Source: Octopus vulgaris
Lineage: Eukaryota
Assembly: GCA_951406725.2 (NCBI GenBank)
Contig: OX597821.1
Coordinates: 28,830,001 to 28,894,000 of the forward strand
Direction: 5' to 3'
DNA length: 64,000 bases
Numbering within the stretch: position 1 is the stretch's first letter; each line of letters starts with the position of its first letter. The notes below the pieces were generated by a model, which ran no database searches, was not told where the DNA came from, and was given only the letters and a program-made list of their open reading frames with translations. Positions 9,361 to 36,718 of this stretch are shown one piece after another. The translations under genes and the position numbers were made by a program.

Positions 9361-9573
9361 ATACTTTATTTTAAGCAGCAGACAATTCAACAAAATCTGT
9401 TACTCTGAGTTTCTCGTTGCCGCTCATCAGACTGTCTGATGAACGGCAACGAGAAACTCAGAGTAACAGATTTTGTTGAATTTTCTGCTGCTTAAAATAA
9501 AGCATATTACTCTACCACTGGTATTTGAGTACTCTTTTTTCCACCTTGTTTCACATTTATGTGTTTACTCCGG
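9361..9573 (+). mobile_element. short non-autonomous HHR-bearing element with a fold-back palindrome
   Basis: 9361-9505 is a near-perfect palindrome centred on TCATCAGAC-T-GTCTGATGA. HHR CTGT-CTGATGA-ACGGCAACGA-GAAA-CTCAGAG-TA-ACAG at 9432-9469. Non-palindromic sibling at 22805-22953. (TA)n flanks. Confidence 0.8.
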
Positions 9574-10218
9574 TCTATATATATATATATATATATATAT
9601 ATATATATATATGTTCTCAAGTTTCACTGTTACCACTTCCGACCTATACGGCCGTTATATTGAAGAAGAAGAAGAAGAAGAAGAAGAAGAAGCCCTAATG
9701 TTATCAATGAATCGTATGCTCTCGTTTAGTTCAAGGACGACTCTGATGAAAAAAAAAACATTTAATGAACCTTAACGGTTTTTTACTGAATTATTTTCAT
9801 ATTCAGTATTAGGGGCATCAACCTTAAGCAGTTTCATATTTTTCTGTGGGTGAAATTTCATCTGCATACGAATGGTTATGCACAACAGCTTTAAAACAGA
9901 TAAATTCATACTCTATGTTTAAATTATTTAATCCTCTCCTGGTCGATAAAACTTCGTACGAAATCTAGCACTCGATCGTTATGCATTTGTAGATACAAAT
10001 CTTATGCATTAAAACAAATAATGTATTGCCTAATAAACACATCCATACACACAGACGCACACACATACACACATATTCTCACACACACAAACGCACGCAT
10101 ATGCGCACACAGACATCCACACACACTCACACACTTACCACAACAACTCATTTGTACACGCATATTTACTTGCATTGGCAACATATATGTCTGTGTGTGT
10201 GTGACTGAATGTATGAGC

Positions 10219-10541
10219 ATATATATATATATATATATATATATATATATATATATACATACATACATACATATATATACATATATATATACATACATAT
10301 ATATATATATACATATATATATATACATACATATATATATATATATATATATATACATATATATATACATATATATATACATATATATATATACATATAT
10401 ATATATACATACATATATATATATATATATATATATATACATATATATACATATATATAAATATATATATATATATATATATATATATATATATATATAT
10501 ATATATATATATATATATATATATATATATATATATATATA
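10219..10541. repeat. (TA)n/(TACA)n microsatellite
   Basis: Direct reading. Confidence 0.9.
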
Positions 10542-11639
10542 GACACATATATACACCTATAATCGGAAAAGCGATAGCTATTTTGCAATTGGTGAATGGT
10601 AATATAATAAAGGAAATTACTTCGACGTAATGACACGTAAAAAATAATGCAAGGTATATGTATTTTCAATACATTTTCTACGGCATGTATATGCGTAGTT
10701 TTCACTCATATAAACAAACACTCAGACACTCATACTTTTTCATATTTGTTTTTGTTAATTTCTCTGCACAATGAACTGTTTTAGAAAAACTGAAACGAAT
10801 CGATTTCAAAATATTTCATGTAGGGTGACAAATCACAGTGTTTTTCGATAAAGTGATAAATTAAATACCAACCCGCATTCCTTAGTTTTAAGTTCAAATA
10901 ATGCGGTTGTTTTATACTTGTCTAATAATTTGTGTCGGTGAAAATGTTGCTCAATCACAAAAATGGCCGCCATTTCTTGGTATCAGTGCAGTTCTGATTT
11001 ATTTTAACAGAATGTACGCAAATAGGTATTGCCAACAGTCAGTGGGTAAACAACTGGTTTTGACCGAAGATACATTTATTTATTGAGAGAAGGTTGTTTT
11101 GCCTAATAATATGTGTATTGGCTTAACACCCCTTAATATTTGTCTTCATCGATTGCTTACTCTGTACGTCCACACTGTTGCTGTTAGTTCGTTCGTTCGA
11201 AGCCCTAACTCTCCACAAATTTTATATTTTTAAAATATCTAGATGCTGCTGTCTTATGAAGTTTTCCAATCTTGTCGTTGAAACCTCGAGGTAGGGAGTT
11301 TTAAATAGTCGACAACTGAGGAGGAGTTATACTTCTTTTGGTATTTTGTCCCATACTTGTCTCTAGTTATGTGTTTACGTATTTTTACTCGTTGTTGATG
11401 TTCTGTTCTTATTGTGCATTTTTTTGTATTTCGTCCTTTACTTATCTCTCGTGTGTTTACTGGTTTTTCGCTCGTTGCTGATGTCCTGTACTTAATGTGT
11501 ATTTTTTATTCATAATCGAACGCCATGCACCCTTGTCCACAATAAGTTCTCGCATTTATATATATATATATATGTGTGTGTGTGTGTGTGTGTGTGTCTG
11601 TGTCTGTGTGTGTGTGTGTATATATGTATGTATATAACA

Positions 11640-11808
11640 TTCTTTTTTTTAGACTTTCCCGTTCTACAGTCCGACGAAGAGCTATGCTCGAAGCGTCAAA
11701 CACTCTCTCTTTTTGCTGAGCGTCACACTAATATATTCTTTGTGCCCCTCCTCTTGTTGTCTGCCACTGTTAATTGTTAATTTCATTGTTTGTTTATTTG
11801 AATTGACG
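11640..11808 (+). mobile_element. short element with degenerate HHR (GAAGAGC..GCTCGAAACG family)
   Basis: CCGACGAAGAGCTATGCTCGAAGCGTC at 11671-11697, downstream CTGAGCGT, 3' end abutting (AT)n. Siblings at 23096, 38414 and 57541. Confidence 0.55.
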
Positions 11809-11921
11809 ATATATATATATATATATATATATATATATATATATATATAGATAGATAGATAGATAGATAGATAGATAGATAGATAGATAGATAGATAGAT
11901 AGATAGATAGATAGATAGATA
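11809..11921. repeat. (AT)n + (GATA)n
   Basis: Direct reading. Confidence 0.9.
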
Positions 11922-11999
11922 TAAATACTGTTGTGCGTGCATGTCCAAATATTATGTCAGCTAAAAGTTGAGTTACGATAACAGCTGAGTTGATAGCGG

Positions 12000-12603
12000 C
12001 TATTGAGTCAAAATACTTGACTACAGCTGCCTCTCCTCTCTAAACAAATCAGACTGTTTATTCCTTCAAAATATTCAAAATATTCAAAACGCTCTAAACG
12101 TCACTGGGGAAAGGTAACGAGGCATGCTTGAACATTTGTACATTCTGTACTTGAGAACATACCGGATGTATGCTGACAGTAAGATGGGGCTACTATTAAT
12201 AAAATTCGCCCAACGATATATCTCTTAAGGCACATTTTTGGAAGGAAGATACTTTTGAGAAATTCTGAATTCAATTGGCCTTCAGGCTTACCTGATGTAA
12301 CGGCCCCAGAATTTTCTTTTTAGTAATATCTGAAAGACAGAGTACTTCGGACCATCCAGCAACTCAAAGCCAACATCTGTGAAAAAAATTGAAGGAATGC
12401 GCCAAGAAATATCATGAACAGTGATGGAAAACTGTTTAAAAAGGGTCCGCTCTTCTCTAGGAGAAAATTGTGGCCTTACTTTCAAAAGTAATTAAAATAT
12501 GTTTTCCAAGAAGTGTACTCAATGTTTATAAAAGAGCATATGTGGATGTTAAAGAAGAGGATTATATTGTGAAATAGTCTAGCGGCTATTGGGTTACCCT
12601 GTA
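12000..12603 (+). pseudogene. degraded Tc1/mariner-superfamily transposase relic
   Basis: DG at ~12183 and WPSGLPDVTAPEFSF at ~12276-12320 (cf. QQDGA / WPPRSPDLTPLDFF). Ends ...TTGGGTTACCCTG-TA like a CAG-type TIR. Left boundary approximate. Confidence 0.5.
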
Positions 12604-12793
12604 AAATACGTGGGAAGATGATCAAGCATTGATCGATACGTATTAGTGGGATAGTGTGAACTTTGTTGGTTACAAAATCTTCACCAAGTGTATATCAGAG
12701 AAAAGCTGATGTACATTCAGATAGATAGTTTGATAGAAAGATAGGTATTAGATATATTAATATAGAGACAATATGATAGACTACCAGCCAGCC

Positions 12794-34776: not shown

Positions 34777-34839
34777 GCACAGAATCACTCATCTTGCTAC
34801 AGTCAAAAATTGTGAAGCATGACTGTCAACACTACTACA

Positions 34840-34884
34840 TGAACCCGAAGATTGCAGAATTCAATGCATGAAAGTACTAGTTCA
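34840..34884 (+). ncRNA. minimal type I hammerhead ribozyme (U4C variant, palindromic stem III)
   Basis: TGAAC-CCGAAGA-TTGCAGAATTCAATGCAT-GAA-AGTACT-A-GTTCA: stem I TGAAC/GTTCA, stem II TGCA/TGCA, AGTACT palindrome. Confidence 0.65.
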
Positions 34885-35796
34885 ATCAGAATGAATATTT
34901 AACATTCTACTATTTCATTTTATTTTATTCAATTATAATATATTATCTTATAATATATCATTATAAGATTGTAAATAAAACGTGAAAATCAGACAAGGTT
35001 GGAATTCTTTTTATTAATATATTCTTCTATACACAATCACACACACCCATATATATATATATATATATATATATATATGTGTGTGTGTGTGTGTGTGTGT
35101 GTGTGTGTGTGTGTGTGTGTGTGTCTGTCTGTCTGTGTGTGTGTGTGTGTATGTGTGTGTGTGCGTGTGTGTGCATGCACGTGTTTGTGTGTTATTTAAT
35201 AAACACACTATATCATTTTATGTGCTACCATTAGTTTAATGTGCTTAGAACATGCCAAATACTGTTTTCAACACGTCTGGTACCCTAGCGTAATTATCAG
35301 ACCCTGTTACATGTCATAATGAACTAAAAATGGAACGACAGAAAAGGCGAGCAAGTGCAAGAAGGAAATATATATAAAAGATAGAAGGTTGAAAAACAGG
35401 AAAACGTATAAGAATGCTTTCTTATAAGAAGCAAAAGGGGGAATTGGAGTTGTTCCCCTTAGACCGAAATTTATAAGGCTTGAAAGATAGTGGCTTAGTG
35501 TCAATGGAGAGGGGAGCACTTTCTAATTCTACGGTAACTTAGTCATATGCTTACAAGCACTGAAGATTTCGGATCTACAGTTCAGCAGGGGTTAGACGTC
35601 TTAGATTTGAAAGGTATCTGAGTTCTTTCAAGAAAGCATAGTTTGTATTTGATCCGTTAACACCCAGTGTAGAATTTTCGATTATTTTCCAATTTATCGT
35701 ATATGGTGTGGTGTTTCATTTCAAACTTCATGCATGGCTAGCCAGCATGTGGCGATATATATATATATATATATATATATATATATATATATATAT

Positions 35797-36137
35797 GCTG
35801 AGACCACTTTCAGTCATGACACTAACCATGGGATTGCACCTAGAAAGTCATCCGCCCAGGCACAAGTCCGGGCAAGTTTGTTCATGGAAGGCCAGCAGTC
35901 GCCCAAGCTAACCGGCCTCCCCTCTCCACGCAACCAGTGTTATCAAAGGGAAAGGCAAAGGCCGATACAGCTTGGCACCTGTGACGTCGCAACTCATTTC
36001 TACAGCTGAGTGAACTGGAGCAACGTGAAATAAAGTGTCTTGCTCAGGAACACAAAACGCAGCGCGGTCCGGGATTCGAATTCACAACCTCACGATCGTG
36101 TGCTCGACGCTCTAATCCCTGAGCCATGCACCTTCAC
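35797..36137 (-). mobile_element. tRNA-derived SINE (C-related head, third tail type)
   Basis: Minus strand GTGAAGGTGCATGGCTCAGGGATTAGAGCG...GAATTCGAATCCC, core CCTGAGCAAGACACTTTATTTCACGTTGCTCCAGTTCACTCAGCTG. Confidence 0.8.
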
Positions 36138-36159
36138 AATATATATATATATATATATA

Positions 36160-36320
36160 CGTTTATATATTTGTTGTGCAAGATTTTTTATGCGAAATCG
36201 TGTGTTGAAACAGGTATTGTTGTATTTCGGAATGGTCATTTTGACAGTTTAGCCAATAAAATATATAGTGCGTGAGTTTTTATTGGCTAAACTGGCAAAA
36301 TGACCATTCCGAAATACCAC
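36160..36320. repeat. short fold-back element in (TA)n
   Basis: GTATTTCGGAATGGTCATTTTGACAGTTTAGCCAATAAAA (36221-36260) inverted at 36278-36317. Confidence 0.7.
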
Positions 36321-36345
36321 TATATATATATATATATATATATAT

Positions 36346-36718
36346 ATACAAAATAAGAAAATGGAGAAATACACCTTAATCAATAATCAACTACCAAATA
36401 ATACCCAATCACATAATTTATTAACCCATATGAACATCAAGGTCACCTTGATGTTCATATGTAGTGGATTAATAAATTATTTTATAGGGTATTATTTGGT
36501 AGTTGATTATTGATTAAGGTGTATTTCTCCATTTTCTTATTTTGTATTATTAATTTGTGGTAAAACATTTTACCTTCGCCCATATAATACAATAACTGAA
36601 TTAATTACATCGCAATTCTTAACATTTATGCATTAACTTTGTTGGGTGCTTTACTGGAAGTATATTGGATATATATTATCCCATGGTGGGTTGCACTCAC
36701 AAGCCCTATCTCAATTAA
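36346..36718. mobile_element. fold-back element in (TA)n (~95-bp arms plus unique extension)
   Basis: ATACAAAATAAGAAAATGGAGAAATACACC... mirrored to ~36547, centred on CATATGAACATCAAGG-TCA-CCTTGATGTTCATATG. Confidence 0.7.

What the first reader, a model, noticed from the sequence alone, without database searches (positions are those of the whole stretch)
9361..36718. Recurrent snap-back (fold-back) insertions of PLE-type elements into (TA)n
Seen: at least five short insertions in (TA)n have one complete arm plus a shorter inverted duplicate. They are 9361-9573 (1-nt spacer), 28755-28987 (7-nt spacer), 36346-36718 (3-nt spacer), 36160-36320 and 17857-18558. The autonomous PLEs at 9234-9305 and 30740-35020 show the same geometry. 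Known: PLEs often carry inverted 5'-truncated segments, while L1 twin priming normally inverts without long duplication. Inference: near-zero spacers with duplication suggest the nascent cDNA self-primes as a hairpin, or a second cDNA primes at AT microhomology. This would be a shared GIY-YIG/RT mechanism acting on a family of tiny ribozyme-bearing parasites that seed hairpins across the genome.
Basis: partly seen in the sequence, partly recalled or inferred. Interest (0 to 1): 0.75.

Follow-up and report, generated by a model that had tools for sequence, protein, structure and literature searches.

The report
Twin-primed Penelope stubs, not snap-backs
These mirror-image insertions are real tail-end stubs of Penelope-type jumping genes and of ribozyme-motif repeats that likely ride on them, and their junctions indicate they were likely made by two separate DNA copies started at two fixed points and joined head to head, not by one copy folding back on itself.

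Summary
The palindromes are real and also occur in contigs of four public runs from different studies. They are the known head-to-head, 5'-truncated insertions of Penelope-like elements (PLEs). They are not one family. 9361-9575 is the end of an autonomous Hydra-type PLE with intact 711-aa copies elsewhere. 28755 and 17857 are 534- and 504-nt hammerhead retrozymes. The 36160 and 36346 families are unresolved.

Snap-back is not supported: of 97 junctions, 38 have the inverted arm reaching further 5' than the main arm, 18 have a loop under 3 nt, and only 7 fit a hairpin. One arm ends at a fixed site 1 and the other at a fixed site 2 (19 of 19 unbiased pairs), matching the two RT start sites shown in vitro. 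The scan noted this two-end rule before, on other DNA of this genome.

Added here: near-zero spacers are typical only of the two Hydra families. Their short arms stop at a sharp wall at the 5' edge of the hammerhead, in one family 29 nt after a conserved TATAAA. This suggests strong-stop cDNAs running to the RNA's 5' end (inferred).

The parts
9431..9575 (+). Family A main arm: 3'-terminal 145 nt of the pLTR of a young Hydra-type PLE, ending at site 1
   Evidence: 100% identical to genome copies that continue into an intact 711-aa RT+EN frame
9363..9432 (-). Family A inverted arm, outer end at site 2 (68 nt upstream of site 1); 2-nt overlap with main arm, loop 1 nt
9431..9470 (+). Minimal type I hammerhead motif (core at 9436, predicted cut after 9465); mirrored in the inverted arm
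   Evidence: motif and helix scan, fold; no Rfam match
3435..9229 (-). P1: Hydra-type PLE, pLTR (9229-8945) - frameshifted ORF (8902-6761) - about 3-kb microsatellite-rich 3' region - pLTR (3719-3435) ending at site 1
   Evidence: collinear with L225, L226
9233..9306 (+). P1 inverted arm with hammerhead motif, outer end at site 2; spacer 145 nt
9032..9110 (-). P1 TATAAA (9110-9105), 5' wall at 9081 (first base of hammerhead stem I) and hammerhead motif
28823..28987 (+). Family B main arm, 3' part of a 534-nt hammerhead retrozyme monomer, ending at site 1
28757..28824 (-). Family B inverted arm, outer end at site 2 (about -100); reaches about 10 nt further 5' than the main arm
36445..36717 (+). 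Family C main arm ending at site 1; family extends >=1.35 kb upstream, non-coding as far as read, hammerhead core at -499
36346..36445 (-). Family C inverted arm, outer end at site 2 (-170)
36159..36261 (-). Family D main arm ending at site 1
36259..36325 (+). Family D inverted arm, outer end at site 2; reaches 19 nt further 5' than the main arm
17858..18460 (-). Family E retrozyme: 504-nt monomer plus 99-nt partial tandem, hammerhead motif 18193-18113 with long stem II; 75-80% identical to family B
18461..18558 (+). Family E inverted segment in two pieces (template switch), outer end near site 2
32844..35048 (+). P2: 5'-truncated PLE (RT, CX4CxxC linker, GIY-YIG), hammerhead variant at 34840-34885, about 30-nt tail 35021-35048
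30740..32519 (-). P2 inverted arm, 99.8% identical, without the tail; 32520-32843 holds two rearranged pieces of the same element
22804..22954 (+). Older relative of family A, single arm, no inversion, starting at hammerhead stem I

Best explanation
These are head-to-head insertions of Penelope-like elements and of retrozymes that likely use PLE enzymes, and each was likely made by twin target-primed reverse transcription. Inferred steps: the GIY-YIG endonuclease cuts both strands of a (TA)n target with a stagger; one 3' end primes at RNA site 1 and the other at site 2, 30-170 nt upstream; the two antisense cDNAs stop and are joined by end-joining with 0-6 nt of overlap or short insertions. 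Shown: two fixed outer ends, one of each per insertion; variable inner junctions; arms from the same source haplotype; 11-17-bp target duplications where the flank is readable. In the two Hydra-type families most cDNAs stop at one wall at the 5' edge of hammerhead stem I. This is likely the 5' end of a linear, uncleaved transcript, and it is what makes the spacers near zero.
For: Two-end rule: the inverted arm's outer end lies within 8 nt of a fixed site 2 in 93 of 115 inverted calls over six families. In motif-ordered unbiased samples every head-to-head pair had one site-1 and one site-2 end (A 10 of 10, P1 9 of 9). Either site can end the long arm (L121, L123, L055). A PLE protein in vitro cuts and extends both strands and starts RT at two internal sites that bound the 'tail' (PMC11167929). 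Junctions: 38 of 97 non-nested, 18 with loop <3 nt, 7 hairpin-compatible. One zero-loop junction occurs 673 times genome-wide and on several arm haplotypes. Wall: A 18 of 30 arms end at -129..-157, 0 at -158..-574, 12 longer; P1 24 of 30 at -115..-137. Retrozyme B shows no wall, with 30 ends spread from -142 to -476. TATAAA lies 29 nt before the P1 wall in 11 of 12 upstream haplotypes. TSD-like repeats in 13 of 93 insertions against 4.5 in shuffles.
Against: 34 of 97 junctions (main arm longer, no 2-nt overlap) do not exclude a sloppy fold-back, and all 3 P2 junctions called were hairpin-compatible. Deletions at palindrome centres after insertion could create asymmetry in the older families. 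The TATA candidate of family A is not conserved in older copies, and D. virilis Penelope has a TATA-less internal promoter (PMC2377424). No transcript 5' end was observed. Rfam does not call these hammerheads, and fold z-scores are weak for A, P1 and P2. Identical junctions could partly be copies of palindromic masters. DNA searches return only the 40 best hits, which biases main-arm lengths for B-E. No mobilising partner was identified for B-E.
Confidence: 0.72

Rival explanations
1. Snap-back: the single cDNA folds back on itself (or the RNA self-primes) and is copied back toward the target, giving a nested inverted duplicate.
For: 7 of 97 junctions fit and 34 are neutral; the 3 P2 junctions fit; arms share source variants; the two inner ends are coupled in families A, C and D (permutation p 0.0002, 0.009, 0.019); self-priming was proposed for rotifer PLEs (PMC3846280).
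Against: 56 of 97 junctions are non-nested or have a loop under 3 nt. By my reading all four simple window elements are among them. It does not explain the fixed site 2, nor copies in which the short arm carries site 1 and the long arm site 2 (L123, L277).
Confidence: 0.08
2. Palindromic stubs are copied as units: a few head-to-head masters are transcribed and re-inserted with their junction, like a retro-MITE.
For: One junction recurs 673 times; window element D shares its junction with L093.
Against: The same junction sits on different arm haplotypes, with both arms concordant; most junctions are unique; the wall also bounds single-arm copies.
Confidence: 0.1
3. Twin priming is right, but the 5' wall is not a transcription start: it is a splice acceptor, a processing site or an RT stop at hammerhead stem I.
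For: The wall coincides with the 5' edge of stem I in both families; a pyrimidine tract plus AG lies at both walls, and in D. virilis the intron ends at helix I (PMC4209133).
Against: The AG context and donor candidates are not conserved among copies while TATAAA spacing is; I saw no obvious hairpin upstream of the wall (by eye, not folded); arms do not continue into an upstream exon.
Confidence: 0.2
4. Assembly or library chimeras, or ordinary MITEs.
For: Palindromes in (TA)n are error-prone to assemble.
Against: Head-to-head joints in contigs of four runs; arms diverged 2-9%; family-specific fixed ends; variable centres and variable 11-17-bp duplications; continuity with RT/EN frames.
Confidence: 0.02

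Closest known systems
Inverted 5'-truncated insertions with one-sided tail of EN+ Penelope-like elements (Craig et al. 2021, PMC8557442, passages and section 11 read; Arkhipova et al. 2013, PMC3846280, passages; Schostak et al. 2008, PMC2377424, passages)
   Same: Head-to-head arms, partial tandems forming pLTRs, tail at one end only, variable TSD, microsatellite targets, palindromes at the junction.
   Different: The tail is 55-170 nt in six families here against 30-40 bp described (about 30 nt in P2). The junction data argue against the self-priming reading, and tiny double stubs dominate two families.
PAc (Poseidon, Anolis) in vitro TPRT (Frangieh et al. 2024, PMC11167929; parts 1-2 of 4 read, main text and start of methods)
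   Same: Both strands cut and extended, two internal RT start sites downstream of the hammerhead, uncleaved RNA used, AT-rich target.
   Different: In the parts read, no strand preference for the two sites, no model for inversions and no 5' stop are reported; here each insertion uses one of each site.
Hydra-clade PLEs (PMC8557442 section 11)
   Same: RWK, DKT, CxCX5C linker, CxxC and CxH in the endonuclease, hammerhead, (TA)n target (families A and P1).
   Different: Monomers of 3.36 kb and about 5.5 kb, with long non-coding 3' regions, against 'generally <3 kb'.
Metazoan non-LTR retrozymes (Cervera and de la Pena 2020, PMC7229834, passages; Li et al. 2026, 10.64898/2026.07.22.740005, part 1 of 5 and passages)
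   Same: Non-coding tandem monomers with one type I hammerhead motif each (B 534 nt, E 504 nt).
   Different: Longer than the ~300-nt examples; PLE-type inverted insertion with two fixed ends ('inverted' has 0 hits in PMC7229834 and 1, in a reference title, in the preprint); cleavage and circles not tested.
L1 twin priming (recalled; only search listings seen)
   Same: Two target ends prime two cDNAs that are joined by microhomology.
   Different: In L1 the second primer anneals at variable internal positions and the pieces barely overlap; here the second site is fixed and the arms overlap extensively.

Membership tests
EN+ Penelope-like elements | Single ORF with RT and GIY-YIG endonuclease | tested here: met
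   P2: Pfam RVT_1 E 9e-7 (just under its cut-off) and GIY-YIG E 1.5e-5. A: intact 711-aa frame with YRDD and a YTG..F..R endonuclease motif, but no Pfam hit.
EN+ Penelope-like elements | pLTR from partial tandem, 5' truncation, inverted copy, tail at one end | tested here: met
EN+ Penelope-like elements | Placement in the PLE RT phylogeny | not tested
   No reference set aligned; A and P2 barely align to each other.
Hydra-clade PLE (families A, P1) | RWK, DKT, CxCX5C linker, CxxC and CxH motifs, C-terminal EN without CCHH | tested here: met
   Read by eye in P0001 and the window fragments (RWR in P1); P1 is 37-48% identical to A.
Hydra-clade PLE (families A, P1) | Insertion into (TA)n and hammerhead motif | tested here: met
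   (79 of 93 insertions over six families have TA runs on both sides)
Hydra-clade PLE (families A, P1) | Generally shorter than 3 kb | tested here: not met
   A monomer 3356 nt; P1 about 5.5 kb. A stated tendency, not a strict criterion.
Neptune/Nematis-type PLE (P2) | CX2-5CxxC linker and CCHH in the endonuclease | tested here: inconclusive
   CX4CxxC linker and candidate C, C, H, H residues seen by eye; the two clades were not separated.
Non-LTR retrozymes (B, E) | Non-coding head-to-tail monomers, each with a type I hammerhead | tested here: met
   534-nt tandem in L055, also L048 and L052; 504-nt in the window; motif scan. Rfam silent.
Non-LTR retrozymes (B, E) | Self-cleavage and circular RNA | not testable with these tools
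   Needs in vitro transcription and RNase R northern or RT-PCR.
Non-LTR retrozymes (C, D) | Short tandem monomer | tested here: inconclusive
   No tandem unit or PLE ORF within 1.35 kb (C) and 0.65 kb (D) of shared upstream sequence; 5' ends not reached.
MITE | Fixed terminal inverted repeats, fixed centre, fixed-length TSD | tested here: not met
   Unequal ends, variable centres, 11-17-bp duplications.
Snap-back (hairpin-primed) inversion | Inverted arm nested in main arm, stem of 2 nt or more, loop of 3 nt or more | tested here: not met
   7 of 97

The most novel reading that the evidence does not exclude
Hydra-type PLEs make LTR-like strong-stop cDNAs. A TATA promoter in the pLTR starts the RNA at the first base of the hammerhead, and an RT dimer primes obligately at two leader sites from the two target strands. 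Failed transfer of these short cDNAs leaves thousands of zero-loop palindromes, while successful transfer to the 3' repeat would regenerate the pLTR. This would give PLEs a two-strand, strong-stop replication cycle distinct from both LINE TPRT and the circular-RNA model, with retrozymes (no wall) using circles or multimers.
Probability: 0.3. Interest if true: 0.7.

Novelty: new member of a known kind. Interest (0 to 1): 0.45.

Why it matters
How PLEs build their tandem and inverted structures is named as open in PMC8557442, and the one proposal I found is self-priming (PMC3846280). This genome holds thousands of young copies (4,422 and 8,177 exact motif hits for two families). Their junctions discriminate between the models and favour twin priming from the two sites found in vitro. 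The sharp 5' wall gives a cheap test of a linear versus circular template. The elements themselves are ordinary members of known classes.

Tried and rejected
Rfam on the whole window: the 150 of 186 matches shown were chance hits, mostly miRNA models on TA repeats, and none was a hammerhead; targeted scans of three motifs gave none. Pfam found nothing relevant in the family A protein or the P1 fragments. A 69-nt DNA query for an unbiased family A sample returned nothing; exact motifs were used instead. No RNA holder was listed on record. Four runs guessed to be RNA, contigs only, showed no splice joints and no start sites on L124:4300-5700, which is no evidence either way. The window's variant in the A inverted arm occurs 9 times genome-wide and does not show a second template. 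Equal-length termination of the two cDNAs was rejected, as offsets centre on 0 rather than -68 in A and P1. Coupling of inner ends was not significant in B, E or P1. Walking upstream of C and D found no contiguous PLE ORF. The P2 junction table was poor because arms exceed the fetched flanks (3 calls of 26 loci). Seven loci were dropped as second arms or duplicates (L051, L084, L160, L168, L180, L191, L193), and 22 of 119 automated inverted calls were left out of the 97 (outer end not reached, off both sites, or low-complexity hits). Literature searches listed no paper applying twin priming or strong-stop to PLE inversions; subscription papers and supplements were not seen.
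Full report
Observation. The window lies in a 2.8-Gb genome (G000:C8). The five short palindromic insertions exist as described, between (TA)n, with arms 2-9% apart. The long elements are larger than stated and lack near-zero spacers: P1 spans 3435-9306 with a 145-nt spacer, and P2 spans 30740-35048 with 720 nt that include two rearranged pieces. 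Head-to-head joints at many neighbouring positions of the P1 repeat, and (TA)n ends at both fixed sites, occur in contigs of four public runs, so the class is not an assembly chimera. The window's own junctions were not individually bridged.

What the pieces are. 9361-9575 (family A) is the last 145 nt of the pLTR of a young PLE. Identical copies run on into an intact 711-aa frame and form 3356-nt monomers. The protein has RWK, DKT, CxCX5C, CxxC and CxH, the Hydra-clade features of Craig et al. (PMC8557442 section 11); Pfam does not detect it, and no tree was built. P1 is a broken relative (37-48% identity). P2 has RT and GIY-YIG hits and a CX4CxxC linker, and barely aligns to A. 28755 (B) and 17857 (E) belong to related non-coding tandem monomers of 534 and 504 nt with one hammerhead motif each, that is non-LTR retrozymes by structure. 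36346 (C) and 36160 (D) are ends of longer hammerhead-bearing repeats whose 5' ends I did not reach. The hammerheads rest on core motifs and helix pairing; Rfam does not call them. An earlier scan note pointed me to the Hydra clade; I then checked the motifs.

Two fixed ends. In 197 loci of six families, 119 had an inverted arm called. Of the 115 whose outer end was reached, 93 end within 8 nt of a family-specific site 2, about 55-170 nt upstream of the main arm's site 1. P2 shows the classical ~30-nt version. The DNA searches favour long main arms, so I also sampled exact motifs in genome order. Every head-to-head pair had one end at each site (10 of 10 and 9 of 9), and either site can end the long arm (L121, L123). 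Target duplications were found in 13 of 93 insertions against a mean of 4.5 in shuffled pairs, the clear ones 11-17 bp, so each palindrome is likely one event. This matches the tail of PLEs and the in vitro result that a PLE protein cuts and extends both strands from two internal RNA sites (PMC11167929). Earlier notes of this scan report the same two-end rule on other DNA of this genome; I had reached it before that look-up (notes).

Test of snap-back. A cDNA that folds on itself must give an inverted arm nested inside the main arm, with a stem and a loop of at least 3 nt. Of 97 curated junctions, 38 have the inverted arm reaching further 5' than the main arm, 18 have a loop under 3 nt, 7 fit, and 34 are neutral. 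The three P2 junctions called do fit. In the window, A has a 1-nt loop, and the 'spacers' of B, C and D are the inverted arm's own continuation. Zero-loop palindromes centre on native self-complementary 2-6-mers, as expected when two cDNA ends anneal or join. One such P1 junction occurs 673 times, on several arm haplotypes. The arms share source variants more than other copies do (B 8 vs 3.8 expected, C 9 vs 2.1, D 3 vs 0.5, E 3 vs 0.7). This fits one RNA or one source locus, and does not separate the models. Self-priming was proposed from such palindromes in rotifers (PMC3846280); these data argue against it as the general rule.

Why spacers are near zero. Offsets of 10 nt or less occur in 30 of 37 junctions of A and P1 but in 8 of 60 in B-E; the window's B element has the tightest gap of 18 unbiased pairs. 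In A and P1 short arms stop at a wall. In A, 18 of 30 unbiased arms end between -129 and -157, none between -158 and -574, and 12 are longer. In P1, 24 of 30 end between -115 and -137. The wall is the 5' edge of hammerhead stem I. In P1 it lies 29 nt after a TATAAA kept in 11 of 12 upstream haplotypes, but the candidate box in A is not conserved. Retrozyme B has no wall. I infer that both cDNAs run to the 5' end of a linear, uncleaved transcript. A splice acceptor or an RT stop is the rival, since D. virilis Penelope has an intron ending at helix I and a TATA-less promoter. RNA data here were contigs of runs guessed to be RNA and could not test this. Inner ends are also coupled in A, C and D but not in B or E; this is unexplained and would fit two RTs moving on one RNA.

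Mechanism. Shown: geometry, two fixed ends, variable junctions, same-source arms, wall. From the literature: double-strand cutting and two start sites. Inferred: twin priming in vivo, end-joining of the cDNAs, the wall as RNA 5' end, and PLE enzymes mobilising B-E.

Novelty. The geometry and the element classes are known (PMC8557442, PMC3846280, PMC2377424, PMC7229834, 10.64898/2026.07.22.740005; read as passages or the parts named under Closest known systems). Six literature searches listed no paper that explains PLE inversions by twin priming or reports a strong-stop wall. Subscription papers and supplements were not seen and may hold this. Look-ups of scan notes for the wall or these two sequences were empty. 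Verdict: new members of known kinds, with a useful footprint on an open mechanistic question; interest 0.45.

Noticed in passing
window 19240-19567 and 26789-27019: Palindromic repeat with about 100-nt terminal arms, not in (TA)n, with a second partial copy; MITE-like, unrelated to the PLE stubs.
   Followed up: no
window 19843-20062: Another degenerate 220-nt palindrome outside (TA)n.
   Followed up: no
window 49159-50775: Ten tandem copies of a 161-nt unit at 96% identity; the hammerhead motif scan gave no hit there.
   Followed up: no
window 2508-2684: Fragment similar to the N-terminus of the family A protein (41% identity): a further Hydra-type PLE remnant.
   Followed up: no
window 26671-26724: Short interstitial TTAGGG array.
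   Followed up: no
window 53721-54083: Open frame that resembles a mariner-type transposase fragment (recalled resemblance).
   Followed up: no
window 9306-9363 and 36321-36348: Different families sit back to back in one (TA)n tract (P1 with A; D with C); the same clustering is seen in fetched loci (L035, L277/L306).
   Followed up: partly
L122:737-8440: Head-to-head insertion with two uninterrupted family A reading frames.
   Followed up: partly
L303/L304: The two arms of one P1 palindrome differ at a site that separates subfamilies, a possible two-template event; nearly all others are concordant.
   Followed up: partly
family D (L091-L120): The inverted arm reaches further 5' than the main arm in 14 of 16 curated junctions, as if one RT trailed the other on one RNA; the hammerhead core mostly reads CUGAUGC.
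   Followed up: partly
L143: A P1 stub starting exactly at the wall is preceded by sequence of its own family's ORF.
   Followed up: no
L209, L210: P2 forms tandem arrays of 4271-nt monomers at over 99.9% identity: a very young family.
   Followed up: partly
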